Under the pieces are notes generated by a model. That model made no database searches, was not told the origin of the DNA, and saw nothing but the letters and a program-made list of their open reading frames with translations. Positions 24,419 through 37,924 of a stretch of 60,726 bases of DNA are shown here, piece after piece (position 1 is the stretch's first letter; every line of letters starts with the position of its first letter). The position numbers and the translations under genes were made by a program. The stretch is from an uncultured Candidatus Poseidoniales archaeon (lineage in GTDB: Archaea > Thermoplasmatota > Poseidoniia > Poseidoniales > Thalassarchaeaceae), in NCBI GenBank assembly GCA_902514485.1, contig CABXQY010000001.1, positions 1 to 60,726 on the forward strand, read 5' to 3'.

Positions 24419-24434
24419 TTTAGGTTACCCTAAA
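24419..24434. promoter_or_regulatory. Palindromic operator-like site TTTAGG-ttac-CCTAAA (copy A), overlapping a TATA-like CCTAAATTTTAT
   Basis: Perfect 6+6 inverted repeat with a 4-nt spacer. It lies 10 nt upstream of the first possible start (24445) and 31 nt upstream of ATG 24466 of the single-lobe transferrin-like gene. Confidence 0.65.
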
Positions 24435-24444
24435 TTTTATCTGT

Positions 24445-25515
24445 ATGTTATTATTCGGTAAAGGTATGAAGGTAGCTACGGTTACAGACTGGGCAGTAAA
24501 AAATAAGGCAATATTGATGGTAGGTGTTCTACTATGTGCAGGGACTATATACATGGTTTTTGATGTCAATTATAAGGAATGTGACGATCAAGAGAATTGT
24601 CTTATTGTTGCTTTTGAAGTACAGGATACTTACCTTATTTGGGATAAAAACCCACAACATCTAGCCGACAAACTTAGTACACTTACAGGAATGGATGTAG
24701 AGATATATCCAGTAACTGATTCGGGTGCTGCAATTGAAGCCGTCAGACTAGGTAATGCAGATATTGCATTCATGGATGGTGCAGCGGCATGGTTAGCATG
24801 GGAAGTATACGGATTAGATGTCTTGGCTGCTGAAGAGAAAGCAGATGGTAGAGTATACTACAATGCAACTGCATGGGTAAAAGCAGACTCGGACATGGCG
24901 GAAGCTTACCTCGATGATGATGATACTACAGACCCATTTGCACTAATGGAAGGAAAAATCTCTTGCCATACAGGATGGCTAAAAAGTGCAGGAATGCTCA
25001 TCCCTATGGGTTATTTGATTGGTAATGGATATGCAGAAGTTGTAGGTGATGAAAATGAAATTGAGTCTCTAAGAGATACAGTGTATGGTTTCTTCTCAGA
25101 TGATTCTAGTATCCCTGAGGGAGGAACGCCTTACTCATCCTACAAAGGAGCACTTAGGTGCCTATCTGATGGAAAGGGAGATGTGGCACTAGCTAAAGAT
25201 TCAGTAGTAAATTCATACTGTACTGGAGAAGATCGCTACGATTGGTGCTTAGATATTGATGAATATGTAATGTTACCTGCATTTGGGCAAGCTCCCAGCC
25301 ACCCTGCCATGTATAATTCAGAAGTGATGGATGAAGAAACCGTTATTATTGTTCAAGAAGGATTGGCAAAACTTGGAGATGATGATGAAGGAAGAGAAAT
25401 CCTCAATGACTTATTGAATACAGATGGAATGGTTGTTGCTAACTCCGAAGATCACTTGGGGACTTACGCTGCAGCTATATCCAATGTACCTGGAATTCAG
25501 GCTTATTTTGAATAA
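24445..25515 (+). CDS. Single-lobe transferrin-like substrate-binding protein, membrane- or lipid-anchored
   Basis: Blocks match transferrin lobes: NADIAFMDGAAAW, RVYYNATAWVKADSD, GKISCHTGWLKSAGMLIPMGYL, YSSYKGALRCLSDGKGDVALAKDSVV, DWCLDIDEY and APSHPAMY. It has an N-terminal hydrophobic anchor. Confidence 0.75.
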   Translation: MLLFGKGMKVATVTDWAVKNKAILMVGVLLCAGTIYMVFDVNYKECDDQENCLIVAFEVQDTYLIWDKNPQHLADKLSTLTGMDVEIYPVTDSGAAIEAVRLGNADIAFMDGAAAWLAWEVYGLDVLAAEEKADGRVYYNATAWVKADSDMAEAYLDDDDTTDPFALMEGKISCHTGWLKSAGMLIPMGYLIGNGYAEVVGDENEIESLRDTVYGFFSDDSSIPEGGTPYSSYKGALRCLSDGKGDVALAKDSVVNSYCTGEDRYDWCLDIDEYVMLPAFGQAPSHPAMYNSEVMDEETVIIVQEGLAKLGDDDEGREILNDLLNTDGMVVANSEDHLGTYAAAISNVPGIQAYFE

Positions 25516-25554: not shown

Positions 25555-26742
25555 ATGAAGTATTTTGCTATATTTGTTCTAATAATTCTTTGTTCAGGAT
25601 TGACGGGGTGTATTGATTCTGAGGACGACTTTGAATGGCCAGAACCAACAGAATTTAATTGCGAATTATCCCTAGACTTAAATCTAGAATGTAAATTGTA
25701 TATGGAAGGATTCGAAACTCCACATCACTCAATTTCCAATCCTGAAAATGAGGAAATATGGATTATTTATCTTAACGGATTTGTTAAGTCATGGGATGGA
25801 GAGGAACTGGAAGAAATCGCCGACTTAAGTTCATTTGTGAATCGCTGCCACATGGAACAGGGGCTTCTAGGAATGGCCTTCGATGAAGATTTCAATACTT
25901 CAAAAACAGTACTGATATCATATATAGAGGAAGGTGATTGTGATGGCCCTAATGATTCAGATTTGATATTAGCATCAATAAAATTGGGGGAAAGTGGATT
26001 ACTAGATCCTTCTACTATTTCTTCTTTAAGAACCGTAGAACAACCTTACAGGAATCATAATGGAGGACACCTGATTAGTATTGGAGATAATCAATATCTT
26101 TGGGGCATAGGTGACGGAGGTAGCGCAAATGATCCTGAAAATAATGGCCAAAATAGGAGTAACTCACTTGGAACTATAAACCTTTTTTCATACGAAAATG
26201 GGAAAATTTCTCCCGTACTTAACAACTCAGAAGATGACCCATATATCTTACATCATGGTTTGAGAAATCCATGGAGATTTTCACTTGGTGAAGATAATAT
26301 GATCTGGATTGGAGATGTTGGACAAAATTGTTGGGAAGAAATAAATTTAGTTCCATTGTTTGAAAGAAAGAATCTTGGTTGGTCATTAAAAGAAGGTTTT
26401 CAATATTTTGACGAGGATGGAGATTGTTATGAAGAAGATGACCACGAGGACCATAGTGATGATGACCTGACTTACCCAGTTGTTGCTTATGGTCATGAAA
26501 ATGGAAATTGTTCAATCACAGGAGGATTTTGGATGGATTGGGGGCCGGAATCACTACAAAATGGATATTTATATGGAGATTTTTGCAGTGGGGAGATTTG
26601 GTTATTGAAAGAAACTGATGACGGGAAATGGAAAGAAAACTATGTCGGTTCAAGTGGTGGAATGATTGTCGGGTTTGGTAGAGGAATTGCTGATGAAATA
26701 TTAATTTTTCATTGGACTGGCGATATAGTACTAATTGAATAA
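25555..26742 (+). CDS. PQQ-dependent sugar (glucose/sorbosone) dehydrogenase-like beta-propeller lipoprotein
   Basis: Signal plus lipobox LTGC. Family blocks GLLGMAFD, YRNHNGGHLISIGDN, GIGDGG, HGLRNPWRFS and GDVGQNCWEEIN are present. Confidence 0.75.
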   Translation: MKYFAIFVLIILCSGLTGCIDSEDDFEWPEPTEFNCELSLDLNLECKLYMEGFETPHHSISNPENEEIWIIYLNGFVKSWDGEELEEIADLSSFVNRCHMEQGLLGMAFDEDFNTSKTVLISYIEEGDCDGPNDSDLILASIKLGESGLLDPSTISSLRTVEQPYRNHNGGHLISIGDNQYLWGIGDGGSANDPENNGQNRSNSLGTINLFSYENGKISPVLNNSEDDPYILHHGLRNPWRFSLGEDNMIWIGDVGQNCWEEINLVPLFERKNLGWSLKEGFQYFDEDGDCYEEDDHEDHSDDDLTYPVVAYGHENGNCSITGGFWMDWGPESLQNGYLYGDFCSGEIWLLKETDDGKWKENYVGSSGGMIVGFGRGIADEILIFHWTGDIVLIE

Positions 26743-26752
26743 TAAAAAGACA

Positions 26753-27736
26753 TCATTTATTCACACTAGATGGTAAAAAGATACTTTTCCAAGATGGGCG
26801 ATTAAGCCCAATATCTTCTGTGAAATATGAACGTGCCTTAATTGAAATAAAATCAATGATTAAAACTACTACGAAGATAATAATTAGGTATGCAATTACT
26901 TTATCATATTGTAAAAATTTCAAATATAAATTAATGTAGTATCCAATTCCTCCAGCACCTACTATTCCAATCACAGTACCATGCCTGAAATTATATTCAA
27001 ACATGAAAATTACTTGAGAGATTAAATCATTTGCACATTCAGGAATAACTACCTTAAATGCTATTTCAAACCTTGTAAGGCCCATTGCTTCAGCAGCATC
27101 GAGAGGAGTTTTAGTCATACCTTCTATTGCTTCATATTGAAGTTTACCGAGATACCCGACTGTATAGACAGTCATAGCTAAGACTCCTGCTAAAGGTCCA
27201 TATCCAACTAGTATTACAAAGAATATTGCCCAAATAATACTTGGTAAACTTCTGAACGCAGCCAGTAAGAATCTAGGTAAATATGACAAAGTAGAAACTA
27301 GAAGAAAAATGATTCCACCATCGTTCCATCTCGTCAAATATTCGTAGAAAAATGATGCATAGTCCAAATTACGTGAAGCTAATATTGAAATTGGAAGGGA
27401 TATAATCGCCCCAAATACTGTTGATACAAATGCAATTTTCATTGTCTCGACCATCCCGATCCAGGCAGTTGAGCAGGTAAAATCCATGAAAGTCGGGTAA
27501 ACAGTGCATACAGGATAAGCTCGCGGTTCAAGGACACTCCAATCAGGAGGCCATAATGATTCATTAAAGAATGTCACAAGATTACCAAGTCCTTGAGATG
27601 CCCTGCCCCAGTCATTAACCATTCCATCAAAAACAACGATGCTGAATAAGAATATTAGAATAAAAATTCCAAGCCATGAGCGTAGTGGACCAAAGAAAGT
27701 ATCTAAGAACTTCCTTAAAGGATTAAAATCATTCAT
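26753..27736 (-). CDS. ABC importer permease, PhnE family
   Basis: The block EAAEAMGLTRFEIAFKVVIPE...RHGTVIGIVGAGGIGYYI matches the PhnE signature (VGAGGIG). Its start overlaps the ATPase stop by 4 nt. Confidence 0.85.
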   Translation of the reverse strand: MNDFNPLRKFLDTFFGPLRSWLGIFILIFLFSIVVFDGMVNDWGRASQGLGNLVTFFNESLWPPDWSVLEPRAYPVCTVYPTFMDFTCSTAWIGMVETMKIAFVSTVFGAIISLPISILASRNLDYASFFYEYLTRWNDGGIIFLLVSTLSYLPRFLLAAFRSLPSIIWAIFFVILVGYGPLAGVLAMTVYTVGYLGKLQYEAIEGMTKTPLDAAEAMGLTRFEIAFKVVIPECANDLISQVIFMFEYNFRHGTVIGIVGAGGIGYYINLYLKFLQYDKVIAYLIIIFVVVLIIDFISIKARSYFTEDIGLNRPSWKSIFLPSSVNK

Positions 27737-28482
27737 AATTTAACCTCCATAGCGGTAGGTTCGGTGATAAATGGATTAGCTCTTCCATCATCAATTACTA
27801 GTAACCTATCTGCCATCATTTTTGCACGTGTAATATCATGCTCTACAACAAGAAGTGCAGAATTACTAGATTTGACATATTTTGTGACCTCCTTAAGGAC
27901 CATACCAACTGTTTTTTCATCTAGTTCACTTAGGAACTCATCAGCCATTATCAGTTCAGGACATTGAGCCAATGTTCTAGCAGTAGCAACTCTTCTCTGT
28001 TGACCTCCTGAAAGCCGCCTTATTGGTTCACTAATTTTATCTTCAAGGCCCATGGAGTTAATTGCCTGAATAGCTTTTTTCTTTGCAAATGAGGACGGTA
28101 AACAAACACCAATAAAAGGTATTGGAGTATTATGACCTGCATTTGCACCTAACATTACATTATGTAATACGCTTGCATGTCTAACTAACCCCAAACTTTG
28201 TGGCACATATCCTAACTTTCCTCTTTTAGGACTGTCAGGAATAGTTTTACCACATACTTCAATACTACCTGAGATAGGACTTATCAGACCTGCAATTGTT
28301 TTCAACAAAGTCGACTTACCGACTCCAGAAGGCCCGGCAATTGCAACAATTTCTCCAGGGAATATTTCTAGATTTGGTATCTGAACTAAAGGCTTATCAT
28401 GCTTATATCCTATCGAAACATCATTTAATCGTATAATTGGTTCAATATTCTTAGGAATATTTGTCATAGACTCACCCCCCAC
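27733..28482 (-). CDS. ABC importer ATP-binding protein, PhnC family
   Basis: Walker A GPSGVGKST, signature LSGGQQRRVATAR and Walker B LIMADE are present. The likely true start is ATG 28467, preceded by GGGGGGTGAG. Confidence 0.85.
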   Translation of the reverse strand: MGGESMTNIPKNIEPIIRLNDVSIGYKHDKPLVQIPNLEIFPGEIVAIAGPSGVGKSTLLKTIAGLISPISGSIEVCGKTIPDSPKRGKLGYVPQSLGLVRHASVLHNVMLGANAGHNTPIPFIGVCLPSSFAKKKAIQAINSMGLEDKISEPIRRLSGGQQRRVATARTLAQCPELIMADEFLSELDEKTVGMVLKEVTKYVKSSNSALLVVEHDITRAKMMADRLLVIDDGRANPFITEPTAMEVKL

Positions 28483-28496
28483 ACCCGATTACTAAG

Positions 28497-28512
28497 TTTA
28501 GGCGCCCCTAAT
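28497..28512. promoter_or_regulatory. Palindromic operator-like site TTTAGG-cgcc-CCTAAt (copy D, one mismatch)
   Basis: Located between the stop of the bilobal binding-protein gene (28570) and the ATPase start (28467/28482). Confidence 0.55.
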
Positions 28513-28569
28513 TCCTATTTGGTATTGACGGAGTGGAGTGAAAACTCAAAATTTACATTCAAAAAATAA

Positions 28570-30669
28570 TTAGTTTGCAAAGATATCAGAATAATATGAA
28601 GAAATATCAGGAATAATTGCTATGAATGACGAATACTGCCCTAGATGTTCTTGAGATGTCGCTCTGGTTAATCCGGATGTACCTAATATGTTATTCATTA
28701 TCTCAGAACCACACATATTTTTCTGAGATGTTTCATCAATTACATGTACTGAAATGTCATAACAACCTGTATATACCGATCCTCGTGTACTGAAATTTTC
28801 CAAATACATCTCATAGTTAAGTGAGATTAAAGCATTCAAGACCGCTGTTCTTGTCTGTATATCCAGCAACTCAGGATTATAGATTACAGAATCGCTTGGG
28901 ATAGGGGCAATAGCAGGGAGGGAGGTATACTCTTCAATATCTAAACACCAATTCATATTTTCTGAAATAACAACATTGTCACAATACATATTAACAGTAT
29001 TTTCTTCTAAAAATACAATATCTCCTCCGCCCTCAGAAAGACATCTTAGTGCTCCTGAATCGCCAAAATACGTATCATTTTGATTAGGTATTGATGAATT
29101 ATAATTGAAGAAAGAATAAATTATTTCTGATAAATAATCTATATCATTACTTTGATTTAATTCGAGATAATTATTTTTCGCTAAATAACTGATTGGAAGC
29201 ATCATACTTTCCACATCTGAAGAATCAGAATGGCAGGATGTTTTTCCTTCCAACAAATCAAAAGGATTAGTCAAAGGATCATTGTCTAAATGACTTATTG
29301 CGATTGAACTATTCGAATTAACCCAAGCTAAAGTATCGGAATATGTTCTACTATCTTCCATTTCTACTGCCGCCATTACTGCCAATTCATATTGTTTCCA
29401 TCCAACCCATGCCAACTCAGAATTAACAATTGCAATATCGGCATGACCATCTCTTAAACTGTTAAGTAATTCGTTTTGAGAATTAACAAAAAATATTTCC
29501 ACATCTATTTTTAATTTCTGAGATAGAAAATCGGCTAAGAGTTCCGGATTTTTATCTACATCATCAGATAATTTACCTAAATCATAAGCAATCTTAATTT
29601 GATTAATATCTGGGGAAACAGAAGTATTCAAGGAGAACTTATCGTTATAATAAGCAGAGATACCCGGTATATTGGAAATTAATGATGAATAACTACCCAA
29701 GTGTACTGAAGTGTTTGTTGCAATGAATCCAGGCGTATTAAGGATATTCTCGAGAATATTAGTCGCTTCGGGATCACTGCTCATTTCAACTAAAATATTT
29801 GTAACTTTACTTGTAATTTCTGAATCTAAAAAATTAGGGTTATACATTACTGGATGGCTAGGTGATTGCCCAAAAGCGGGTAATGCAATATACTCCTCAA
29901 TGTCAAGACACCATTCTTGATTGAGAGAAGAAATTTCATTATTACAAAGAATTTCTACGCTATTTTCTTCTAAAAAGGCAACATCTCCTTTTCCTTCCGA
30001 TAAACATTTCAAAGCACCCGAATAACCATAATATGGAGTTCCAGTGTCTGGAATTGAAGAATTTGGATTAAAAAATCCATGTATAGTATTTCTTATGGTC
30101 TCGACATCATTAGGATCTCCTATAATATTTGCATAACCTAGACCAATTAGGTAACCCATGGGAAGAAGCATACCCACTGATTTTAGCCATCCTGTATGGC
30201 AGGATGTTTTACCAGATAAAAGTGCAAACGGATCAGAATAGGGGTTATCGTCGAGATAAGCACTAGCAACGTCACTATCTGACTTTACCCATGCATTAGC
30301 ATTGTAATATGTTCTTCCATCGACATTAAGGTCTGCAGCTAAAACTTCTAATTGATATTGTTGCCAACCAACCCATGCGGCTCCAGCATCCATTAATGCA
30401 ATATCTGCATTGCCAAACCTCAGAGCTTCCACCATAGCACCCTCCGAGTCAACGCTGAACAGAGAAACATCATAATTTAATTTCTCAGAAAGATAATCTG
30501 CAAAAATCTGAGGGTTAGAATCGATGATGTCGATATTATCTTTGATCTCATATGCAATTACTAGAGTGCCAAGACTGCCTTCTTCACTATCATTACCGAT
30601 ACAACCTGAAACATAAGTCATTATCAAGATTGAAGTAATTAGAATAGAGACTAGCTTACCATTGGCCAT
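28570..30669 (-). CDS. Bilobal (tandem two-lobe) transferrin-like substrate-binding lipoprotein
   Basis: Signal plus lipobox VSGC. Lobe 1 (about aa 35-342) carries NADIALMDAGAAW, RTYYNANAWVKSDSD, GKTSCHTGWLKSVGMLLPMGYL, YYGYSGALKCLSEGKGDVAFLEE, EWCLDIEEY and SPSHPVMY. Lobe 2 (about aa 355-699) repeats the same block order with substitutions. GGAGTG lies 7 nt upstream of the ATG. Confidence 0.75.
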   Translation of the reverse strand: MANGKLVSILITSILIMTYVSGCIGNDSEEGSLGTLVIAYEIKDNIDIIDSNPQIFADYLSEKLNYDVSLFSVDSEGAMVEALRFGNADIALMDAGAAWVGWQQYQLEVLAADLNVDGRTYYNANAWVKSDSDVASAYLDDNPYSDPFALLSGKTSCHTGWLKSVGMLLPMGYLIGLGYANIIGDPNDVETIRNTIHGFFNPNSSIPDTGTPYYGYSGALKCLSEGKGDVAFLEENSVEILCNNEISSLNQEWCLDIEEYIALPAFGQSPSHPVMYNPNFLDSEITSKVTNILVEMSSDPEATNILENILNTPGFIATNTSVHLGSYSSLISNIPGISAYYNDKFSLNTSVSPDINQIKIAYDLGKLSDDVDKNPELLADFLSQKLKIDVEIFFVNSQNELLNSLRDGHADIAIVNSELAWVGWKQYELAVMAAVEMEDSRTYSDTLAWVNSNSSIAISHLDNDPLTNPFDLLEGKTSCHSDSSDVESMMLPISYLAKNNYLELNQSNDIDYLSEIIYSFFNYNSSIPNQNDTYFGDSGALRCLSEGGGDIVFLEENTVNMYCDNVVISENMNWCLDIEEYTSLPAIAPIPSDSVIYNPELLDIQTRTAVLNALISLNYEMYLENFSTRGSVYTGCYDISVHVIDETSQKNMCGSEIMNNILGTSGLTRATSQEHLGQYSSFIAIIPDISSYYSDIFAN

Positions 30670-30793
30670 ACTAACACTCCATTCTCAAACATACGAATAG
30701 ACACTAGTAATTTAATGTGAGTTTGTGGCATCGAACAATAGAAATAATTTATTCTGAAAGTTTTCTCGCCTTTTAAATCGTTATTTCAATACC

Positions 30794-30809
30794 TTTTTTT
30801 TAAAAAAAA
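30794..30809. terminator. T8A8 tract; it reads as an oligo-T run on either strand and may be an archaeal termination signal
   Basis: The sequence ccTTTTTTTTAAAAAAAAtgg lies in the 300-bp spacer between two co-directional minus-strand genes. Confidence 0.3.
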
Positions 30810-30928
30810 TGGGTTAACGAGAGACGCTAAAATTGAATGTGAGTCCCATTTTAACTTTGATGAAGCCAATGATTACCTGATGTGAGCCAGGATAAATCAG
30901 CGCCTCCCGTTACCGTTCAAGTATGTCC

Positions 30929-30957
30929 TTCGATGTGGGCAAAATGCCCACATCGAA
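30929..30957 (-). terminator. Perfect 13-bp stem / 3-nt loop hairpin 14 nt downstream of the stop of the Cys-module lipoprotein gene
   Basis: TTCGATGTGGGCA-aaa-TGCCCACATCGAA, all Watson-Crick. There is no adjacent oligo-T on the minus strand, so it may be an RNA-stability or processing element rather than a terminator. Confidence 0.4.
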
Positions 30958-30970
30958 ATCGTCAATTTAT

Positions 30971-32620
30971 TTATTGGAGTGTTCCAATGTCTTCCGCAGT
31001 TATTCCTAGCATATCCCAAGCTGGTTGTAGATGTGCGCGAACAGCGGCCTGATAGTCAGTTCCTGCTACTGGTACATTACTGAAATCATAGATTCCATTA
31101 ATTCCAGTTGTTCCAAATCCATCGAAGTGTGTAAATGCCGAACACTCTGCTTCAGTCATATCTGCATCAGTTGTATGGGACACCATATTATAACATCCAG
31201 TAAACATAGTAGCGCCATAATTCACATACCAACCATAAGATTCGCATGTAGTCTGATCTACTGCTGTGTCCCATGAGTGAGATACGCTGTTGTAGCAACC
31301 GTCTTGCCCAGCAACTGTGACATAATCTTCAACCCAAATATATGATGTGCATGTAGCATTATCATCGCTTGATGTTTCATGAGATACCATGTTGTAACAT
31401 CCAGTGAAAGTAGTGGAACCCCATGAAGCATTATCATAGTAATCCCAAGACTCGCAGATTGATTGATTCCATGAACTGTTCATACCATGAGATACACTGT
31501 TGTAACAACCTGTGTAAGTTTGTTCACCATAATTCTCTAAGAACATGTATCCAAGACATGAGGTCTCGTCACTGTCTCCAGAAACTTCGTGAATATTCAT
31601 ATTGTAGCAAATATCCTCACCATCACCCATATCATAATCAGTCATGTAGATGTATCCTGCACATTCATCAGCTGCCGCACCACTAACAGTCATAGTAACA
31701 CCATTGTAACAATCGTCACCAGGTGATGGATTCGCTTCAGCAACGTATTTTTCAATTACTCTCCAGAAAGAATATCCCTCTGCTTGATGTGTTTGAGCTT
31801 TTTCTACTGTATCATCAGTATTCATCTTGTGAGCATAACGTATTGTTGCTTGTGAGTAAATAATTACTAGATTCTTTACTATATCGTCTCTTGCAGCAGT
31901 TGCTCCAGCGAGATCTTCGGCTTGTAGTGCAGCAAGGCCCTCATTCATTGCTAAAAGAATTGCTGCATTTGCTATAGCAGTACCATCTGCATTTGCAGTA
32001 GCATAGTTACCTGCTCTCTTGTCTCCAGTAGCATACGGAGAGCATGAAGCATACTCATCTAGACCGTGATAAAACGCCCATCCTTCATCCCATGCGTGTT
32101 GTGCATCATCGGTGCCAAAGTTTCCAGCTTCTGCCTTGTTTATGGCTGCATTTAATTCATGAATTGCATATGCAACCATTATCTGATTTTGGACGCCTTT
32201 CTCAACAGCTTGCTCTCGAACACTATCTGAAGTTCCTTCAAAAATACCAGTTCCATCCAGTGCTGACATCAAGTAGTCATCTAAAGGTGAATCAGTACCG
32301 TAGAAGGTATCTAATCCATGTTGCTTACCAGTAGCATCTGCAAATCCTTGCAATGTTCTGTATGAACCATCGCTCTTTTCTGCATGCTTACCATTCATGT
32401 AAATATCTTTTACCCCATCCCAATCATGCTCTTCCGCTAGATCTTTGATATCACAAACATCTTCAACTAACATTCTATGATTATCAACATTTGAGGCGTA
32501 TTCATATCCGCCGTCTATTTCGTCAAAGTTATTATCAGTATCATCCGATAAACAGCCAGCAAAAGCTGCGGCTAACATACTTAATGTCATCATTATAGCA
32601 ATTATTTTATCATTTTTCAT
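30971..32620 (-). CDS. Secreted lipoprotein: unknown helical N-domain plus six tandem CYN.VSH...C modules
   Basis: Signal plus lipobox FAGC. GGAG lies upstream of the ATG. aa 304-496 contain six modules of about 30 aa, each with two Cys. Confidence 0.6.
   Translation of the reverse strand: MKNDKIIAIMMTLSMLAAAFAGCLSDDTDNNFDEIDGGYEYASNVDNHRMLVEDVCDIKDLAEEHDWDGVKDIYMNGKHAEKSDGSYRTLQGFADATGKQHGLDTFYGTDSPLDDYLMSALDGTGIFEGTSDSVREQAVEKGVQNQIMVAYAIHELNAAINKAEAGNFGTDDAQHAWDEGWAFYHGLDEYASCSPYATGDKRAGNYATANADGTAIANAAILLAMNEGLAALQAEDLAGATAARDDIVKNLVIIYSQATIRYAHKMNTDDTVEKAQTHQAEGYSFWRVIEKYVAEANPSPGDDCYNGVTMTVSGAAADECAGYIYMTDYDMGDGEDICYNMNIHEVSGDSDETSCLGYMFLENYGEQTYTGCYNSVSHGMNSSWNQSICESWDYYDNASWGSTTFTGCYNMVSHETSSDDNATCTSYIWVEDYVTVAGQDGCYNSVSHSWDTAVDQTTCESYGWYVNYGATMFTGCYNMVSHTTDADMTEAECSAFTHFDGFGTTGINGIYDFSNVPVAGTDYQAAVRAHLQPAWDMLGITAEDIGTLQ
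31133..31711 (-). repeat. Coding repeat: six modules of the form C-Y-N-x-[VNM]-[STI]-[HM]-x8-11-C-x-[SGA]-[YWF]
   Basis: The modules are CYNGVTMTVSGAAADECAGY, CYNMNIHEVSGDSDETSCLGY, CYNSVSHGMNSSWNQSICESW, CYNMVSHETSSDDNATCTSY, CYNSVSHSWDTAVDQTTCESY and CYNMVSHTTDADMTEAECSAF. Confidence 0.8.
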
Positions 32621-32637
32621 ATTTCTATCTCCGTGTT

Positions 32638-32653
32638 TTTAGGTCGCCCTAAA
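32638..32653. promoter_or_regulatory. Palindromic operator-like site TTTAGG-tcgc-CCTAAA (copy B)
   Basis: Perfect inverted repeat 18 nt upstream of ATG 32620 of the Cys-module lipoprotein gene, which probably places it at the TSS or 5' UTR. Confidence 0.65.
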
Positions 32654-32680
32654 CTTCCGAGACAGATAGAGTATATCAAA

Positions 32681-32696
32681 TTTAGGTGAGCCTAAA
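32681..32696. promoter_or_regulatory. Palindromic operator-like site TTTAGG-tgag-CCTAAA (copy C) in a divergent promoter region
   Basis: Perfect inverted repeat. On the minus strand it abuts the TATA-like CCTAAATTTGATATA about 45-60 nt upstream of ATG 32620. It is 51 nt upstream of the plus-strand gene start at 32747. Confidence 0.65.
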
Positions 32697-32746
32697 TTAG
32701 AGATTAGGTCTTAAAAAATCTATGAATATGAAAACGATATAATGAT

Positions 32747-34765
32747 GTGAGTATACCTTCTCGATATATTGTGAGTTATTCTGGACGAACGAAAATTTTG
32801 ACGGCAATCTGCGTTATTCTTATGTTTTCGATGTTTTTCCCTCTGGAAAATGAAGATAAAGTACTAGATACAGAGATAATAACTAAAAATCAACTGGGCG
32901 GCGGTGGAGGAAGTATAGAAGATAGATGCAGTTCTATTACTTTCGAAGATATTCTGCCTTATACTCATGCACATTTCGATATTGTGGTCAATGATGACTG
33001 GGATTCTGCAGAGGTAGAAGCGAGAGCATGGATAAATGGTAGCAGTGTTGATTTGTTAAGAGAAAAACTCGACTCATATTTGGAAGAACTATATCCGAGC
33101 GGAGGAGATGGTTGGATCTCAACTGATGAAAAATCTGCTGTTGAGGCAGTTGCTTCAGAATGCATAGAATATGCAATGACTCGAATAGGATTGAGAGAGT
33201 CTTCCCCTCACAGAGGGGGCGTGGGATTAGATTGGAAGAATGCTACTTGGCAAGATAATGGCGTTATAATAGAAGAGTGGAATTTAGTCCCTTCTAATCA
33301 TGCAGATATAAGGGATTGTACTGCTATAGGATCTAGTAATGATTGTGAAGAAGTTCCTGTTTATCCCAATTCAGAAAGAGATTGTAATACCTTGGTTGAA
33401 ACTTCTGAGGGAGTAGATGAATGCAGACTTGAACTATGGATGAATGCTACGATGGTAATACCCAATATGGCCCAAGGAGAGGAGTTTACTCTCGCATTTA
33501 ATGCATCTAATATGACCAATGCAGTTCTAGACTTTACATTCCCTAGTAATCCTGATTTAAGATTAGATATGTGGGAAGAATGCGAAGGAAGAGATGTTGA
33601 ATTCGAGCCTATGACTCATGAAGATGCGCCGTTGAGAGGAACATGTGTCGGAGATGGCTCATCCACATATACATTTGAAAATAATGAAGATATCAAGTAT
33701 ATTCTATCCCCACATCGAAGTAGAGATGTTTGGCCTAGTGGAGAGGATATTTTTGCAGATTTTACAATTGCGCCGATACCTATTGACGAACCACCGGTTT
33801 GGACAGAAAATGCACCACTTGATGAATCATGGTTTCCTTCTCTAGAAAGTGGGGAAATAGTATGGGCAGAATGGGATAGCGTTTCTTCATGGTTTGTCGA
33901 TGAAAAACCACTTACTCAATTAGAGGTTAATTGTGAAGCTGATGAATCAGCAAATATATTCCAACGATCGGATAAATCATTCTCAGGAATTATACCAAGC
34001 GATGGAGTCGTAAGTGTTACTTGTGAAGCAATTGATGTCGCAGGACAGAGTTCAGGAAATAGAACTTGGCACCTTGGAATCCCAATTTCTGTATCGACGA
34101 CATCTAATATTCTCCAAAGTCCACACCCGATAAAGATTGAATTGAATCAAGGATGGCCGGAATTAAGTATAGACTATAGTTTCACACAAACTCAAAATAT
34201 TAATTTAGCTACAATTGATACAGTTACGATAATATCAGAAACGACATTAATGGTTGAATCAATGGGAATGAATCCAGGATTGGTTGATCTTTGGGTTGGA
34301 GTTTACGGAGAAAATGTATATCCCGTTGACAAGATATTTAGTCTAAATATAATTAAAGAGAGTTCACCACCTCTGATTTCTGTTTCCGAATATGGATGGG
34401 AATTAGATACTTGGAAGGCACAGGGTCAATTTAGTGACCCAGATGGAGAAGAAGTCGTATTTTCATTATCCATAGATAATATATCAGCAGGTAGTATATC
34501 TGTTTCGGGAGATTCTTGGAGTACTCCGATAATAAATTTCGGATTATGGGATGAAGGAATCCACGAAGTAAAAGTTATTGGTTGCGATATTTCATTGAAA
34601 TGTAACGAGGTTATTATGATGGTAAATAATTCTCATTTATTCAATACAATTGCTCCTCTTCCCGTCGAAAATCCTAAGGAAACTGGTTTTTTGCCCGGGC
34701 CGAGTATTGTTTTAACTATTTTAGCTCTAACTGTCGGTCTCATATACTCGACCCGACGCGAATGA
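32747..34765 (+). CDS. Large secreted surface protein with a C-terminal membrane anchor; function unknown
   Basis: GTG start and N-terminal signal anchor. The protein is acidic, has many N-x-S/T sequons and includes a HYR-like stretch (VSVTCEAIDVAGQSS). The C-terminus is GFLPGPSIVLTILALTVGLIYSTRRE. Confidence 0.55.
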   Translation: MSIPSRYIVSYSGRTKILTAICVILMFSMFFPLENEDKVLDTEIITKNQLGGGGGSIEDRCSSITFEDILPYTHAHFDIVVNDDWDSAEVEARAWINGSSVDLLREKLDSYLEELYPSGGDGWISTDEKSAVEAVASECIEYAMTRIGLRESSPHRGGVGLDWKNATWQDNGVIIEEWNLVPSNHADIRDCTAIGSSNDCEEVPVYPNSERDCNTLVETSEGVDECRLELWMNATMVIPNMAQGEEFTLAFNASNMTNAVLDFTFPSNPDLRLDMWEECEGRDVEFEPMTHEDAPLRGTCVGDGSSTYTFENNEDIKYILSPHRSRDVWPSGEDIFADFTIAPIPIDEPPVWTENAPLDESWFPSLESGEIVWAEWDSVSSWFVDEKPLTQLEVNCEADESANIFQRSDKSFSGIIPSDGVVSVTCEAIDVAGQSSGNRTWHLGIPISVSTTSNILQSPHPIKIELNQGWPELSIDYSFTQTQNINLATIDTVTIISETTLMVESMGMNPGLVDLWVGVYGENVYPVDKIFSLNIIKESSPPLISVSEYGWELDTWKAQGQFSDPDGEEVVFSLSIDNISAGSISVSGDSWSTPIINFGLWDEGIHEVKVIGCDISLKCNEVIMMVNNSHLFNTIAPLPVENPKETGFLPGPSIVLTILALTVGLIYSTRRE

Positions 34766-34768
34766 ATC

Positions 34769-35587
34769 ATGAGTTTCTCCGGGAGTGTCAGCCAACCATC
34801 TCATGAAGGAGGTTTGTTGGTATCTTTCGAAGGTAGGGCTCCGGGACTATATACAGGAATAAGAATTGTAGGTGGAAAATTCTTAGGAAGAGTCGATTCA
34901 GTAATTGGATCAGTAAATGGTGCATTCATTCATATCAAACCACTGGCAGAAGGCGTAGTAGCAGAAAATGCATTAGGTTCGCCTGTTGAGATTGCACCAA
35001 GAGATCGAAGACCACGTGATGATAGAAAGAGAAATAATAGAGGAAGAGACAATAATCGTGGTGGAAATGATAGACGAAGTTTCGATAGAGATATTCATAT
35101 GAAACCAGGGGATTGGCGTTGTCCAAAATGTAAAAATCATAACTATGCCAATAAACAATTCTGTAATCGTTCAACTTGTAACGAAAAGAAACCAAGTGGA
35201 AGTAATAATTCTTATCAGAGAAGAGGCAATGACCGTGGAAGAAACAATAACCGTGGAAGAGACAATAACCGTGGAAGACATAATACTGATGATTCTAACA
35301 TTAAACCAGGTGACTGGATATGCCCGAAATGTAAAAATCATAATTATGCAAGTAAAAATTTCTGTAACCGCTCAAGTTGTGATATGAGAAAACCAGGGGG
35401 GCCAACAAGTTCCAAAGGTAGTAGAAATACACCGGCTAGGGCGAGAAGACCTGATAGAAAATCTACTGAAAAACGAGGGAATAGTAATTCATCACGTAGG
35501 CAAACAAGTCGGCAAAGTTCATCGGGTTCTGGAAAAAGAAGAAGAGACAATAACAGAAGCGGAAAAAAGTTCAATTCAAGAAGATAA
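34769..35587 (+). CDS. gar1: Gar1-like (H/ACA RNP) domain fused to Arg/Asn/Gly-rich repeats and two RanBP2-type zinc fingers
   Basis: The N-terminal GLLVSFEGRAPGLYTGIRIVGGKFLGRVDSVIGSVNGAFIHIKP parallels archaeal Gar1 (GFLIVRT..VPSLNDRVVD...VGIVKDVFGPVKMPYVAIKP). The fingers are GDWRCPKCKNHNYANKQFCNRSTC (nt 35108-35179) and GDWICPKCKNHNYASKNFCNRSSC (nt 35309-35380). Confidence 0.7.
   Translation: MSFSGSVSQPSHEGGLLVSFEGRAPGLYTGIRIVGGKFLGRVDSVIGSVNGAFIHIKPLAEGVVAENALGSPVEIAPRDRRPRDDRKRNNRGRDNNRGGNDRRSFDRDIHMKPGDWRCPKCKNHNYANKQFCNRSTCNEKKPSGSNNSYQRRGNDRGRNNNRGRDNNRGRHNTDDSNIKPGDWICPKCKNHNYASKNFCNRSSCDMRKPGGPTSSKGSRNTPARARRPDRKSTEKRGNSNSSRRQTSRQSSSGSGKRRRDNNRSGKKFNSRR
35233..35286 (+). repeat. 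3 x 18-nt tandem coding repeat (ccgtggaagaNacaataa) encoding RGRNNN-RGRDNN-RGRHNT
   Basis: Read directly: ccgtggaagaaacaataa / ccgtggaagagacaataa / ccgtggaagacataatac. A related copy lies at about 35040-35070. Confidence 0.85.
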
Positions 35588-35607
35588 TTTCTATTTAACA
35601 GACGTCC

Positions 35608-36648
35608 TTGTACCCGAGGTTTAATTTCTTAGAACTAATACCGATGTTTATGGCGAAGGACTCAGAAACGATTTGGCTCGACGCTTTAGATTCAAGAAAA
35701 AGAGGAGATATTGATTCTGCAATAGAACTTGCTAAAGATGTAGTTCATGTGAATGAAGAACATGCTGATGCTTGGATGGGAATAGCAACCTGGTCTCTAC
35801 CCCCTCCATCTAGAGGAAAACAAATACAACCAACTCTCAAACAATCTGCCAAAGCAATGGCTGCTTTAAGGAAGGTTGTACAATATGATTCGAAAAATAT
35901 TGAAGCATGGAAAATCGGTGGCTGGATATTAGTAGATAACTTAGGTATGCTTGAAGATGCCCTTCAGTGGTGGGAAGAATACAGGTATGAATTCCCGAAA
36001 GATGTCACTCCAGTCATAGAACAAATTTCAATATTAGTTAGATTCGGACTATACGAAGAATGTGGCGAAAAAATATCAGAATTATTCAGCGGAAATTTAG
36101 ATACTCTTTCTAGTCAGCAGGCTGTAAGAATTGATGGGGTTAAGAGAATGGTTGAAAGAGCCGCCAATATGGAAAAGGAAGAAATTTTCAAGCCTCAAGA
36201 TTCTACACATCCACGATGGGAAGTAATTGAAAAAATGAAAAAAGTTAAGCCATTAAGTTCAACATTCTGGTTAATTGCTTTCATAGCCCCCGTTGTTTTT
36301 ATTTTTGGTAGCATATCTATGACATTTTTAGGAGGAAGTATACCTGGTTTCATACTTGTTTTTCTAATGATACTCGGAGCTTTTGGTTTCCTGACAAGGG
36401 CTTCGATGGGACTCTTACAAAGAAGGAACCGTCATGCATTAGATGTAGATAGGGCCATTGATTATGAAACCTCATCTGGGAAAATATGTATTCCTGAATC
36501 AATAAGGGGAAGCATTGTTTATAATTCAATGATTAAAAATCGCAGTCCTGCAATTAAGGAAAGACTAGATCTTCTAATTAAAGCAGATGAAAAGATAAGT
36601 TCTAAGTTCATACTAAAAATCCCTACTTGGGATTTAGAGGAAGAGTAG
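35608..36648 (+). CDS. TPR-like N-terminal domain plus two-TM membrane protein; function unknown
   Basis: The helical N-domain has a TPR-like pattern (AIELAKDVVHVNEEHADAWMGIA; NIEAWKIGGWILVD). Two adjacent hydrophobic helices sit at about aa 220-265. The likely start is an internal Met (MFMAKD). Confidence 0.45.
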   Translation: MYPRFNFLELIPMFMAKDSETIWLDALDSRKRGDIDSAIELAKDVVHVNEEHADAWMGIATWSLPPPSRGKQIQPTLKQSAKAMAALRKVVQYDSKNIEAWKIGGWILVDNLGMLEDALQWWEEYRYEFPKDVTPVIEQISILVRFGLYEECGEKISELFSGNLDTLSSQQAVRIDGVKRMVERAANMEKEEIFKPQDSTHPRWEVIEKMKKVKPLSSTFWLIAFIAPVVFIFGSISMTFLGGSIPGFILVFLMILGAFGFLTRASMGLLQRRNRHALDVDRAIDYETSSGKICIPESIRGSIVYNSMIKNRSPAIKERLDLLIKADEKISSKFILKIPTWDLEEE

Positions 36649-36658
36649 AATTATTATT

Positions 36659-37924
36659 CTAGGTTCCTGCACTGTAATCAGTAGAATAGCTAATTTGTTC
36701 ATCAGTTAGTTGGTCAATTGTAACTCCTGTCGTAGATAATTTTAATGCCGCTAATTCACTATCTTGCTCAGTCGTGATATCATAAACGGAATTAGAATAC
36801 GATTTGCCTTCTTTAGCTAATCTGCAAAGTGCAAGAAATTGATTTGCAAAAGACATGTCCATAACCTCGCTAGGATGTCCTTCTGCTGCAGCCAAATTTA
36901 CTAAACGCCCTCGTGCAAGCAAATGAATTGTCCTCCCATCACTCAAACTAAACGCTTCATTATTTTCACGAATTGTAAAAATTTCTACTGCTCTTTCTTC
37001 TAATTCGGGAATATTTATTTCACAATCATAGTGCCCAGTATTACTAATAATTGCACCATCTTTCATTGAATCTATATGACGACCAATTATCACATCTTTC
37101 ATTCCTGTTGCTGTACAAAATATATCACCTATTGATGCTGCGTCATCCATTTTCATTACCCTGAAACCATCCATTATAGCTTTTAGTGCACAAATAGGAT
37201 CTATTTCTGTAATCACTACATTTGCACCCAATCCTCGAGCTCTGTTAGCAAGGCCACGCCCACAATGGCCATATCCGGCAACTACGAATACTTTGCCTGC
37301 AAGAAGAACACTTGTTGACCTTACTATACCATCAATAGTCGACTGCCCTGTTCCATGTACATTATCAAAATCCCACTTGGTCTCTGCATCATTAACTGCT
37401 ATTACTGGATATAATAATTCACCAGCGTCTGCCATAGCTCGAAGTCGGTGTACACCAGTTGTAGTTTCCTCAGTACCACCAATAATTCCTGTAGATAATT
37501 CAGGATATTTGCTGTGGACTCTGTAAATTAAGTCGGCACCATCATCAAGTGTCAAAGTTGGTTTGAAATCTAAAGTACGGTCAATACATTCGTAAAAACC
37601 ATCGTTACTCTGACCATACCAAGCGTGGACTCCATAACCTTCTCTTGCTAACCAAGCAGCTACATCGTCTTGCGTCGATAGAGGGTTACAACCAGACCAA
37701 GAGACTTCTGCGCCAGCAGCAACTATGGTTTCAATTAATATCGCTGTTTCTTTAGTTACGTGAAGACAACCAGAAACTCTCTGACCGGAAAGAGGTTTGT
37801 CAATCTCTGCTTGCTTCCTGAGAGCTGCTAAAGCGGGCATTCTACTTCTTGCCCATGCAACTCTTTTTTCACCTGCATCTGCTAAAGAAATATCTGCAAC
37901 AGTATAAGGCCCTGATGTATCCAT
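36659..37924 (-). CDS. ahcY: Adenosylhomocysteinase
   Basis: Matching blocks: ADISLADAGEKRVAWA, LDDGADL, GGTEETTTGVHRL, INVNDAETK-like AVNDAETKWDFDN and the NAD site VAGYGHCGRG. Confidence 0.95.
   Translation of the reverse strand: MDTSGPYTVADISLADAGEKRVAWARSRMPALAALRKQAEIDKPLSGQRVSGCLHVTKETAILIETIVAAGAEVSWSGCNPLSTQDDVAAWLAREGYGVHAWYGQSNDGFYECIDRTLDFKPTLTLDDGADLIYRVHSKYPELSTGIIGGTEETTTGVHRLRAMADAGELLYPVIAVNDAETKWDFDNVHGTGQSTIDGIVRSTSVLLAGKVFVVAGYGHCGRGLANRARGLGANVVITEIDPICALKAIMDGFRVMKMDDAASIGDIFCTATGMKDVIIGRHIDSMKDGAIISNTGHYDCEINIPELEERAVEIFTIRENNEAFSLSDGRTIHLLARGRLVNLAAAEGHPSEVMDMSFANQFLALCRLAKEGKSYSNSVYDITTEQDSELAALKLSTTGVTIDQLTDEQISYSTDYSAGT

What the first reader, a model, noticed from the sequence alone, without database searches (positions are those of the whole stretch)
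30971..32620. Lipoprotein with six tandem two-cysteine CYN.VSH modules under the same operator
The C-terminal 200 aa consist of six modules of about 30 aa: C-Y-N-x-V/M-S/T/I-H/M, then 8-11 acidic or polar residues, then C-x-S/G/A-aromatic. Four carry an invariant VSH and one carries NIH. Two Cys per module suggests one disulfide each, and the conserved His with surrounding Asp/Glu/Ser suggests repeated metal or ligand sites. I cannot assign the module to any named repeat family. The N-terminal helical domain (...SYRTLQGFADATGKQHGLDTFYG...AQHAWDEGWAFYHG...) reminds me vaguely of low-iron-inducible periplasmic proteins of algae (Fea1/ISIP2a-like) or imelysin-associated lipoproteins, but I cannot verify that from memory. 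Two operator copies sit in its promoter, and the bilobal transferrin-like gene follows 300 bp downstream on the same strand.
Basis: partly seen in the sequence, partly recalled or inferred. Interest (0 to 1): 0.65.

Follow-up and report, generated by a model that had tools for sequence, protein, structure and literature searches.

The report
Archaeal FEA1-like iron lipoprotein with repeats
This gene of a marine Group II archaeon encodes a surface lipoprotein of the algal FEA1/phytotransferrin family. It sits in a tightly regulated iron-uptake gene cluster and carries six copies of a small, undescribed two-cysteine module that these archaea also use in other metal-handling surface proteins.

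Summary
Gene 30971-32620 (minus strand, 549 aa) has a lipobox and a helical domain. The helical domain passes Pfam Fea1 and the curated NCBIfam family "FEA1-related lipoprotein". Six 34-36 aa C-Y-N-x-x-[ST]-H ... C modules (aa 304-509) follow, then a conserved 40-aa tail.

The modules are an insertion into the curated family profile. Orthologues in Poseidoniales carry 0, 2 (commonest), 5, 6, 8 or 10 copies.

No Pfam, NCBIfam or PDB entry covers the module. A profile search of 1.84 billion proteins found only 36 hits. The named ones are all Poseidoniales. They include fasciclin-halocyanin, ZnuA-type and EF-hand surface proteins, two of which were checked and are not under this operator.

The operator TTAGG-N4-CCTAA lies upstream of the gene in 66 of 66 related loci. 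There are 159 exact sites against 1.1 expected by chance. The sites mark only this gene, a PhnC/E-like ABC importer and a transferrin-like binding protein.

Most likely this is an iron-regulated Fe(III)-capturing lipoprotein. Its modules probably form an acidic, disulfide-stapled beta-hairpin arm. Repeated metal sites remain possible but unproven.

Verdict: a new variant of a known family, of moderate interest.

The parts
30971..32620 (-). Whole gene: a 549-aa FEA1-related lipoprotein with six inserted modules.
   Evidence: ORF list. NCBIfam NF038033 at 395 bits against a cut-off of 250. Pfam Fea1 at E 3e-25. 885 homologues. Loci and named relatives are almost all Poseidoniales.
32552..32620 (-). 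Signal peptide and lipobox (MKNDKIIAIMMTLSMLAAAFAG-C23).
   Evidence: Read directly from the translation. A-G-C is invariant in 32 aligned homologues. AF2 confidence is low here, as expected for a cleaved or anchored segment.
31730..32542 (-). FEA1-related helical domain (aa 27-297), with invariant motifs AIHELN, AQHAWDEGWAFYHG, IIYSQA and HQAEG.
   Evidence: NF038033 profile positions 86-361. The AF2 model is all-alpha with pLDDT mostly above 90. Invariant columns are listed.
31610..31711 (-). Module 1 (aa 304-337), CYNGVTM...C; it lacks the His.
31508..31609 (-). Module 2 (aa 338-371), CYNMNIH...C.
31400..31507 (-). Module 3 (aa 372-407), CYNSVSH...C. Four orthologues lost both Cys of this module together.
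31298..31399 (-). Module 4 (aa 408-441), CYNMVSH...C.
31196..31297 (-). Module 5 (aa 442-475), CYNSVSH...C.
31094..31195 (-). Module 6 (aa 476-509), CYNMVSH...C.
30974..31093 (-). Conserved C-terminal tail (aa 510-549, IYDFSNVPV...LQPAWDMLGIT..DIGTLQ). It belongs to the FEA1-related family, not to the repeats.
   Evidence: On its own it matches NF038033 profile positions 370-406. In 0-module orthologues it directly follows the helical domain. It is helical in AF2.
32639..32652 (.). Proximal operator TTAGGTCGCCCTAA, centred 26 bp upstream of the ATG.
   Evidence: An operator lies upstream of the gene in 66 of 66 related loci. The consensus is RTTTAGG-N4-CCTAAAY, with 159 sites against 1.1 expected.
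32682..32695 (.). Distal operator TTAGGTGAGCCTAA, 43 bp from the proximal copy.
30930..30956 (-). Perfect 12-bp hairpin 14 nt after the stop codon. A U8 run follows on this strand at 30802-30809 and is a possible archaeal terminator.
   Evidence: Read from the sequence. Function is inferred only.
28570..30669 (-). Downstream partner gene: a bilobal transferrin/PhnD-like substrate-binding lipoprotein.
   Evidence: Pfam Phosphonate-bd and Transferrin. The best PDB hits are lactoferrins at E 3e-19. It lies immediately downstream of the fea gene in 26 of 49 evaluable loci.
26753..28482 (-). ABC importer: ATPase 27733-28482 and permease 26753-27736, with their own operator at 28498-28511.
   Evidence: Pfam ABC_tran and BPD_transp_1. 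PhnC/PhnE-like, just under the cut-offs. Operator.
24420..25515 (+). Operator 24420-24433 plus a single-lobe transferrin/PhnD-like binding protein at 24445-25515.

Best explanation
What it is. The gene encodes an iron-regulated surface lipoprotein of a Poseidoniales (Marine Group II) archaeon. Its core is the helical FEA1/ISIP2a-type domain plus a C-terminal tail, as in the curated family "FEA1-related lipoprotein".

How the core works (inferred). The core binds Fe(III) at the cell surface and hands it to the neighbouring transferrin-like binding proteins and the PhnC/E-type ABC importer.

Regulation. Transcription is controlled by a repressor that binds the palindrome TTTAGG-N4-CCTAAA. One copy sits at or near the start site and one overlaps the promoter. 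The operator is shown to be real. The regulator and its signal are inferred.

The six modules. They are a 206-aa insertion between the last helix of the domain and the tail. Each is a beta-hairpin followed by a 16-17 residue loop. That loop is closed by a Cys-Cys bond, carries the [ST]-H, and ends in a short helix. The array holds almost no Lys or Arg and is rich in Asp, Glu, Tyr, Ser, Thr and Asn.

Most likely role of the array. It is a lineage-specific, disulfide-stapled, probably glycosylated structural arm. Its length is tuned by tandem duplication and loss. It is not the primary ligand site. At most it adds weak cation binding.
For: Family and anchoring:
- Family membership is shown.
- The lipobox is invariant.

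Insertion and copy number:
- Orthologues with no modules match the whole profile in one piece. The window's tail alone matches profile positions 370-406.
- Copy number is 0, 2, 5, 6, 7, 8, 9 or 10 by CYN count. Most of the odd counts become even once degenerate units are included; P0053 keeps 5.
- Identical adjacent units in P0043 show recent duplication.

Disulfide and fold:
- P0032-P0035 lost both Cys of module 3 together.
- AF2 gives pLDDT 86.7 for the whole protein and 80-91 across the repeats. Each unit is a hairpin plus a short helix.

The module as a general building block:
- Only 36 hits were found in 1.84 billion representatives. They include fasciclin-halocyanin, ZnuA-type and EF-hand/PGF-CTERM proteins. 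The names available (four of the ten clusters looked up) are all Poseidoniales.
- The fasciclin-halocyanin and ZnuA-type genes that were checked lack the operator.

Composition:
- K+R is 0.2% in modules against 6.8% in the N-domains.
- N-glycosylation sequons (N-x-S/T) number 0.85 per module against 0.61 in shuffles. The N-domain has none.

Iron context:
- The operator is present in 66 of 66 loci. There are 159 sites against 1.1 expected, and 158 of them lie upstream of fea, the ABC ATPase or the single-lobe binding protein.
- The neighbouring binding protein's best PDB hits are lactoferrins and transferrins, and it keeps the SCHTG and YGYSGA(L/F)KCL motifs.
- FEA1 and ISIP2a are iron-uptake proteins of algae (PMC7676907, PMC7972479).
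Against: - No experiment exists for any archaeal member.
- Iron binding by the helical domain rests on family membership and context only.
- The regulator was not found (a weak test using recalled sequences), and the signal could be something other than iron.
- The His is conserved in 88% of modules, which is more than a plain spacer needs.
- All four kinds of host protein are metal-related (Fe, Zn/Mn, Cu, Ca).
- ZnuA-type hosts carry His-enriched module variants next to His-rich tracts.
- The near-absence of Lys and Arg would also suit cation binding.
- I could not inspect the model's coordinates. Cys-Cys distances and the His geometry are therefore unverified.
Confidence: 0.55

Rival explanations
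1. Metal antenna. Each module is a small metal-binding unit, with His7 plus Asp/Asn and Tyr, or even Cys-His-Cys, as ligands. The array multiplies low-affinity Fe(III) or other cation sites, concentrating metal at the cell surface next to the FEA1 and transferrin-like sites.
For: - His is present in 181 of 205 modules and at least 90% conserved in orthologous columns.
- Tyr2 and Asn3 are nearly invariant. Asp/Asn at alignment column 15 and Tyr/Phe at column 25 are common.
- K+R is 0.2% and D+E is 13%.
- Host proteins are Fea1, ZnuA-type, cupredoxin and EF-hand proteins.
- Variants such as CHDxxxH...CEAAGH sit beside HDDH tracts in ZnuA-type proteins.
- The array is expanded in an iron-regulated gene.
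Against: - Orthologues with no modules exist, and most have two. The sites would therefore be dispensable.
- The loop between His and the second Cys varies in sequence and length.
- Module 1 of the multi-module forms lacks His.
- The module also sits in linker positions of fasciclin-halocyanin proteins, and two host genes checked are outside this regulon.
- Y-N-x-x-T-H resembles the purely structural Kelch turn Y-D-P-x-T-N. This is only a lead.
Confidence: 0.28
2. Envelope or glycan binding. The aromatic-rich hairpins bind a carbohydrate or an S-layer component. This would hold surface proteins at the right place in the archaeal envelope, or attach them to algal polymers.
For: - Tyr is 10.9% of module residues, and aromatic positions on the hairpin are conserved.
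- The unit is a hairpin repeat, as in other aromatic-rich hairpin repeats that bind ligands (own knowledge).
- The module occurs only in extracellular, lipid-anchored proteins of one order.
Against: - There is no match to any carbohydrate- or wall-binding family in Pfam or the PDB.
- The hosts already have lipid or PGF-CTERM anchors.
- There is no link to glycoside hydrolases or adhesin-only proteins among the 36 hits.
Confidence: 0.1
3. The cluster is a phosphonate or phosphate system, as it is annotated in Marine Group II genome surveys, and the lipoprotein and operator respond to phosphorus rather than iron.
For: - The ATPase, permease and binding proteins score best against PhnC, PhnE and PhnD models.
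- Phosphonate transport is listed as a core Marine Group II trait (PMC6336850).
Against: - All those scores are below the curated cut-offs.
- The binding proteins also pass Pfam Transferrin, and their best solved relatives are lactoferrins, with the anion-site and Tyr-ligand motifs kept.
- The co-regulated partner is a FEA1-family protein.
- The operator arms TTAGG/CCTAA are those of DtxR/IdeR iron boxes (own knowledge), although the spacing differs.
Confidence: 0.07

Closest known systems
NCBIfam NF038033 "FEA1-related lipoprotein" (equivalog)
   Same: - The helical domain and the C-terminal tail match at 395 bits against a cut-off of 250.
- A lipobox is present.
- Relatives from Poseidoniales carry this name.
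   Different: - The profile contains no module.
- Here 206 aa (six modules) are inserted between profile positions 361 and 370.
Algal FEA1 and diatom ISIP2a/phytotransferrin (Pfam Fea1, PF07692)
   Same: - Same Pfam domain (E 3e-25, profile positions 5-264 of 359).
- Extracytoplasmic and tied to low-iron responses (PMC7676907, PMC7972479).
   Different: - It is an archaeal lipoprotein.
- It is paired with binding-protein-dependent ABC import rather than endocytosis or FOX1/FTR1.
- It carries the module array.
- The predicted fold is all-alpha, with no transferrin or binding-protein fold match.
His-rich loops of ZnuA-type zinc-binding proteins (a functional analogy for accessory metal-capturing segments)
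   Same: - An accessory, variable, acidic or His-bearing segment is inserted into a metal-uptake protein.
- Poseidoniales ZnuA-type proteins carry the same module within such inserts.
   Different: - The module is an ordered, disulfide-closed hairpin unit, not a low-complexity loop.
- No metal binding has been shown.
Kelch blade turn (Y-D-P-x-T-N-x-W)
   Same: - There is a local motif likeness to C-Y-N-x-x-T-H.
- Kelch propellers head the Foldseek list.
   Different: - The likeness is not significant (E 2.3 and 6.2).
- The unit is 34 aa with two to three strands and a disulfide.
- Copy number is variable and there is no propeller.
DtxR/IdeR iron box
   Same: - The palindrome arms TTAGG and CCTAA are the same.
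- It precedes iron-uptake-type genes (box sequence from own knowledge).
   Different: - The arms are 4 bp apart rather than 9.
- No DtxR homologue was found in the window or loci.

Membership tests
NCBIfam NF038033 FEA1-related lipoprotein | Whole-protein score above the curated cut-off (250 bits). | tested here: met
   395.1 bits, E 2.9e-118.
NCBIfam NF038033 FEA1-related lipoprotein | Match along the profile, including the C-terminal part. | tested here: met
   Profile positions 86-361 match aa 27-297. Positions 370-406 match aa 510-549. The match is interrupted by the 206-aa module insertion.
NCBIfam NF038033 FEA1-related lipoprotein | Lipoprotein signal with a lipobox cysteine. | tested here: met
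   AFAG-C23 follows a hydrophobic stretch. A-G-C is invariant in 32 homologues. No dedicated predictor was run.
Pfam Fea1 (PF07692) | Score above the gathering threshold (25 bits). | tested here: met
   89.3 bits, covering profile positions 5-264 of 359.
Phytotransferrin (ISIP2a) as a functional class | Fe(III) binding with a synergistic carbonate anion. | not testable with these tools
   This needs biochemistry. The ligand residues of ISIP2a were not available to me for comparison.
Transferrin / periplasmic binding-protein fold (for the N-domain) | Two alpha/beta lobes around a hinge. | tested here: not met
   The AF2 model is all-alpha with high confidence. No binding-protein or transferrin hit appears in Foldseek against the PDB.
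   There is no Pfam or NCBIfam hit. EfeO 7wgu appears only at Foldseek E = 5, TM 0.10-0.15. The profile search against PDB sequences is empty.
Any named repeat or domain family for the module | A match of the repeat region to a Pfam or NCBIfam model, or to a solved structure. | tested here: not met
   - The best Pfam and NCBIfam hits have E of 0.025 or worse and are unrelated.
- PDB sequence profile search: best E is 6.2.
- Foldseek on the repeat-only model: best E is 2.3.
DtxR/IdeR-type iron box (for the operator) | A 19-bp palindrome with TTAGG and CCTAA arms 9 bp apart, bound by a DtxR-family repressor. | tested here: inconclusive
   The arms are identical but 4 bp apart. No DtxR or Fur homologue was found in the window or 69 loci, using sequences recalled from memory. 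The rest of the genome was not searched.

The most novel reading that the evidence does not exclude
The CYN module is a new class of small, disulfide-closed metal-binding unit specific to Marine Group II archaea. Arrays of 2-10 units would act as cation-concentrating antennae on Fe, Zn and Cu handling surface proteins. In this gene they would feed an archaeal iron pathway that joins a phytotransferrin-family protein to true transferrin homologues. That pathway is currently annotated as phosphonate transport.
Probability: 0.25. Interest if true: 0.75.

Novelty: new variant of a known kind. Interest (0 to 1): 0.55.

Why it matters
Marine Group II archaea are among the most abundant surface-ocean microbes. 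They are uncultured, and how they take up iron has not been described.

This gene shows three things:
- They carry the algal FEA1/phytotransferrin domain as a lipoprotein.
- It sits next to true transferrin homologues and an ABC importer.
- All of these lie under one very specific operator.

Genome surveys list phosphonate transport as a core Marine Group II trait, probably on the strength of this cluster (my inference). If the iron reading holds, that trait needs re-reading. The origin of transferrin and phytotransferrin could then also be studied in a prokaryotic setting.

The module itself is a compact, undescribed extracellular building block restricted to one archaeal order. Its role, scaffold or metal site, can be settled with simple biochemistry.

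Tried and rejected
- **Imelysin/EfeO relation of the N-domain.** Only a Foldseek hit at E = 5, and nothing by profile against PDB sequences. Rejected.
- **Solved-structure relatives of the protein.** None by phmmer at E up to 1.
- **A known repeat for the module.** Pfam and NCBIfam scans of the repeat region alone, and of the six modules of P0121, gave only noise. Foldseek on a repeat-only model gave nothing below E 2.3.
- **Kelch-like turn.** Noted but not significant.
- **Bacteroidota-type repeat proteins** (P0135, P0145, P0149, P0154, P0155). They share only a C-x-S-Y-x-W stretch and lack CYN..H. I treat this as motif-level likeness, not homology.
- **DNA-level tandem repeats in the gene.** None, so the six copies are old.
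- **DtxR or Fur regulator in the window or loci.** None found using sequences recalled from memory. This is a weak test.
- **Literature on FEA1, phytotransferrin or transferrin in Poseidoniales.** None found. The McQuaid 2018 paper was not available. No solved phytotransferrin structure turned up.
- **The operator at other module-bearing genes.** Absent at those checked, so the module is not a mark of this regulon.
- **Model coordinates.** I could not obtain them, so Cys-Cys distances and His geometry were not checked.
Full report
**Observation**

- The ORF at 30971-32620 lies on the minus strand and encodes 549 aa.
- It begins with a signal peptide ending in AFAG-C23. A-G-C is invariant in 32 aligned homologues.
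- C-Y-N occurs at aa 304, 338, 372, 408, 442 and 476. This gives units of 34, 34, 36, 34 and 34 aa, plus a last unit that runs into a 40-aa non-repeat tail.
- Each unit has a second Cys 16-17 residues after the first, followed by x-[SGA]-aromatic.
- Positions 5-7 read VTM, NIH, VSH, VSH, VSH, VSH. Two corrections apply: the strand is minus, and the repeats end at aa 509 rather than at the C-terminus.
- The repeats are not a chance pattern. A profile built only from modules of other, non-Fea1 proteins recovers all six. The whole-ORF E-value is 6.5e-48, each unit scores 4e-7 to 1.5e-12, and nothing else in the window matches.
- There is no repeat at the DNA level, so the copies are old.

**What the protein is**

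- Pfam assigns aa 15-275 to Fea1, "low iron-inducible periplasmic protein" (E 3.3e-25, 89 bits against a cut-off of 25).
- NCBIfam assigns the protein to the equivalog NF038033, "FEA1-related lipoprotein" (395 bits against a cut-off of 250).
- The imelysin alternative was not supported. EfeO appears only at Foldseek E = 5.
- Nearly all of the 69 loci found in species-representative genomes are titled as Poseidoniales or as uncultured marine euryarchaeotes. Two records carry bacterial titles. Both families, Thalassarchaeaceae and Poseidoniaceae, are represented.
- The window has 38.7% G+C.

**The modules are an insertion**

- Orthologues P0055 and P0057 have no module. Their sequence runs straight from ...FWRVIEAYVDDANRS to INDIYELSN....
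- P0055 matches NF038033 positions 77-406 in one piece. The window's 40-aa tail alone matches positions 370-406. The helical domain ends at position 361. The curated family therefore has no module, and the array is inserted in a loop near the C-terminus.
- Copy number among homologues by CYN count is 0, 2 (by far the commonest, 405-423 aa), 5, 6, 7, 8, 9 or 10. Most of the odd counts become even when degenerate units (AYN..., CHN...) are included; P0053 stays at 5.
- P0043 has two identical neighbouring units, which shows ongoing tandem duplication.
- In P0032-P0035 the third unit has lost both cysteines together (AYN...ITEGW). This is what a within-module disulfide predicts.
- His at position 7 is present in 181 of 205 distinct modules. 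It is invariant or at least 90% conserved in the orthologous columns of modules 2-6.

**Structure**

- AlphaFold2 with 32 homologues gives mean pLDDT 86.7 and pTM 0.68.
- The N-domain is all-alpha, mostly above pLDDT 90.
- The tail forms helices. It presumably packs back on the N-domain, but I could not see the coordinates.
- Each module is a beta-hairpin whose second strand ends in the next unit's C-Y-N. A loop carrying [ST]-H follows, then a one-turn helix ending at the second Cys.
- Foldseek against the PDB finds nothing for the whole model (best E 0.44) or for a repeat-only model (best E 2.3).
- Sequence and profile searches of PDB chains are empty or noise.
- The all-alpha prediction and the lack of any binding-protein hit do not fit a transferrin-like fold for this Fea1-family member.

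**Where else the module occurs**

- A 35-position profile of 57 modules was scored against 1.84 billion representative proteins. Only 36 had E of 0.001 or better.
- Besides Fea1-type proteins, the hits fall into three groups:
  - proteins with six or two modules joined to fasciclin domains, a halocyanin-like cupredoxin and a PGF-CTERM anchor (P0121, P0130, P0141 and fragments);
  - ZnuA-type zinc/manganese binding proteins with long His/Asp-rich inserts, two modules, and His-enriched variants such as CHDxxxH...CEAAGH (P0137, P0138, P0144, P0126);
  - EF-hand lipoproteins of 1072-1219 aa with five or six modules (P0122, P0123).
- Where sources give names, they are Poseidonia, Poseidoniaceae, Thalassarchaeaceae or Poseidoniales.
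- A few weak hits are Bacteroidota-type repeat proteins that share only a C-x-S-Y-x-W stretch. I do not count them as relatives.
- The module is therefore an unnamed extracellular building block, apparently specific to this lineage.
- Its composition is striking. Lys plus Arg make up 0.2% of 7058 module residues, against 6.8% in the N-domains of the same proteins. Asp plus Glu are 13% and Tyr 10.9%.
- N-glycosylation sequons (N-x-S/T) are enriched: 0.85 per module against 0.61 ± 0.04 in shuffles. The N-domain has none.

**Context and regulation**

- The window holds four exact copies of TTAGG-N4-CCTAA:
  - two upstream of this gene (32639-32652 and 32682-32695, 43 bp apart);
  - one upstream of the ABC ATPase (28498-28511);
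  - one upstream of a single-lobe transferrin/PhnD-like binding protein (24420-24433).
- An operator lies upstream of the fea gene in 66 of 66 related loci with enough sequence. Its arms are fixed while its spacer drifts.
- Across 1.05 Mb of loci there are 159 exact sites against 1.1 expected. Of these, 158 lie within 200 bp upstream of fea, the ATPase or the single-lobe binding protein. Some also face the divergent neighbour orf32747.
- The extended consensus is R-T-TTAGG-N4-CCTAA-A-Y.
- The bilobal binding-protein gene never has its own copy of the operator. It may be read through from fea. However, a 12-bp hairpin and a U8 run lie between the two genes, so co-transcription is open.
- Among 49 loci with enough downstream sequence:
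  - 26 have the bilobal gene next on the same strand;
  - 27 have the ATPase and permease downstream;
  - 42 have the ABC genes somewhere in the locus.

**Why iron**

- The bilobal protein passes Pfam Transferrin as well as Phosphonate-bd.
- Its best solved relatives are lactoferrins and transferrins (E 3e-19). The SCHTG and YYGYSGALKCLSEGKGDVAFLE motifs align to the transferrin anion-site and tyrosine-ligand region (ligand identity from own knowledge).
- The ATPase and permease score as PhnC and PhnE but below the curated cut-offs.
- FEA1 and ISIP2a are iron-uptake proteins of algae (PMC7676907, PMC7972479).
- The operator arms are those of DtxR/IdeR boxes with a different spacing (own knowledge). 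No regulator was found.
- A Marine Group II genome survey lists phosphonate transport as a core trait (PMC6336850). That annotation probably rests on this cluster, but this is my inference.

**Mechanism**

- Shown:
  - family membership;
  - the insertion architecture;
  - variable copy number;
  - the correlated Cys loss;
  - the conserved His;
  - the restricted distribution of the module;
  - the operator and the synteny.
- Inferred: the lipid-anchored helical domain captures Fe(III) and passes it to the transferrin-like binding proteins and the ABC importer, under an iron-responsive repressor.
- For the modules I favour a structural role, an acidic, disulfide-stapled, probably glycosylated arm of adjustable length. 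The reasons are:
  - orthologues do without them;
  - they sit in linker positions of unrelated proteins;
  - two host genes checked (L070-L073) lack the operator;
  - the loop after the His varies;
  - the best-conserved positions are Cys, aromatic, Gly and Asn;
  - Y-N-x-x-T-H resembles a structural turn of Kelch blades, though this is only a lead.
- The main rival is that each module is a weak metal site. It is kept alive by:
  - the conserved His;
  - the exclusion of basic residues;
  - the fact that every host family handles a metal;
  - the His-enriched variants in ZnuA-type proteins.
- I put the scaffold reading, within an iron-capture lipoprotein, at about 0.55. The metal-antenna reading is at about 0.28, envelope or glycan binding at 0.1, and a phosphorus rather than iron system at 0.07.

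**Novelty and verdict**

- The gene is a member of a curated family, so its core is known in name, although no archaeal member has been studied.
- New here are:
  - the six-fold array of an undescribed module;
  - the module's wider use in Poseidoniales metal-handling surface proteins;
  - the very clean operator;
  - the pairing with true transferrin homologues.
- I rate it a new variant of a known kind, with interest 0.55.

Noticed in passing
window 28570-30669 (-): A bilobal substrate-binding lipoprotein. Its best solved relatives are vertebrate lactoferrins and transferrins (E 3e-19). Both lobes keep SCHTG and Y(Y/F)G(Y/D)SGAL(K/R)CLSEG.GD(V/I).FLE. This is a true transferrin homologue in an archaeon, linked to a PhnC/E-like ABC importer.
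   Followed up: partly
window 26753-28482 (-) and 24445-25515 (+): The ABC ATPase and permease score as PhnC and PhnE just under the NCBIfam cut-offs, and the binding proteins score weakly as PhnD. Marine Group II genome surveys list phosphonate transport as a core trait (PMC6336850). This cluster looks like Fe(III) uptake instead.
   Followed up: partly
window 24420-24433, 28498-28511, 32639-32652, 32682-32695; loci L001-L069: The operator R-T-TTAGG-N4-CCTAA-A-Y has 159 exact sites in 1.05 Mb of related loci against 1.1 expected. All but one lie upstream of fea, the ABC ATPase or the single-lobe binding protein. The bilobal gene never has its own copy. The regulator is unknown.
   Followed up: yes
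window 25555-26742 (+): A glucose/sorbosone-dehydrogenase-like beta-propeller protein lies directly after the single-lobe binding protein and behind the same operator. Its role in the regulon is unknown.
   Followed up: no
window 32747-34765 (+): A 672-aa protein with no family match and a C-terminal hydrophobic anchor is transcribed divergently from the operator-bearing intergenic region. It is a conserved neighbour of fea in most loci, at 26-89% identity.
   Followed up: partly
L018, L021, L023 versus L003, L004 (compared with window 27733-37924): The fea locus is mosaic. Some genomes share the transferrin-like gene and SAH hydrolase at about 90% identity with the window but carry a two-module fea only 56-57% identical. 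Others carry the six-module fea at 91-92% identity next to a differently arranged transporter cluster.
   Followed up: partly
L040 16553-19021 and L056 14654-17182: A few kb from the fea cluster lies a lipoprotein of about 820-840 aa. It has two CYN modules, EF-hands, LDL-receptor-A-like CxDGSDE motifs and a PGF-CTERM-like end.
   Followed up: partly
L073 2511-5544: A ZnuA-type binding protein carries two modules and long His/Asp-rich inserts. It is transcribed divergently from a 141-aa gene with a weak NikR C-terminal domain hit. The TTAGG-N4-CCTAA operator is absent there.
   Followed up: partly
window 30930-30956 and 30802-30809: A perfect 12-bp hairpin with a 3-nt loop lies 14 nt after the fea stop codon. 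A T8 run on the coding strand lies 162 nt downstream. Whether fea and the transferrin-like gene are co-transcribed is open.
   Followed up: no
window 34769-35587 (+): A 272-aa protein has two RanBP2-type zinc fingers set in Arg/Asn/Asp-rich low-complexity sequence. It is a conserved neighbour in related loci.
   Followed up: no
window 31730-32542 (-): The Fea1-family domain is predicted all-alpha with high confidence and has no binding-protein or transferrin fold match. This does not fit a transferrin-like fold for this family member.
   Followed up: partly
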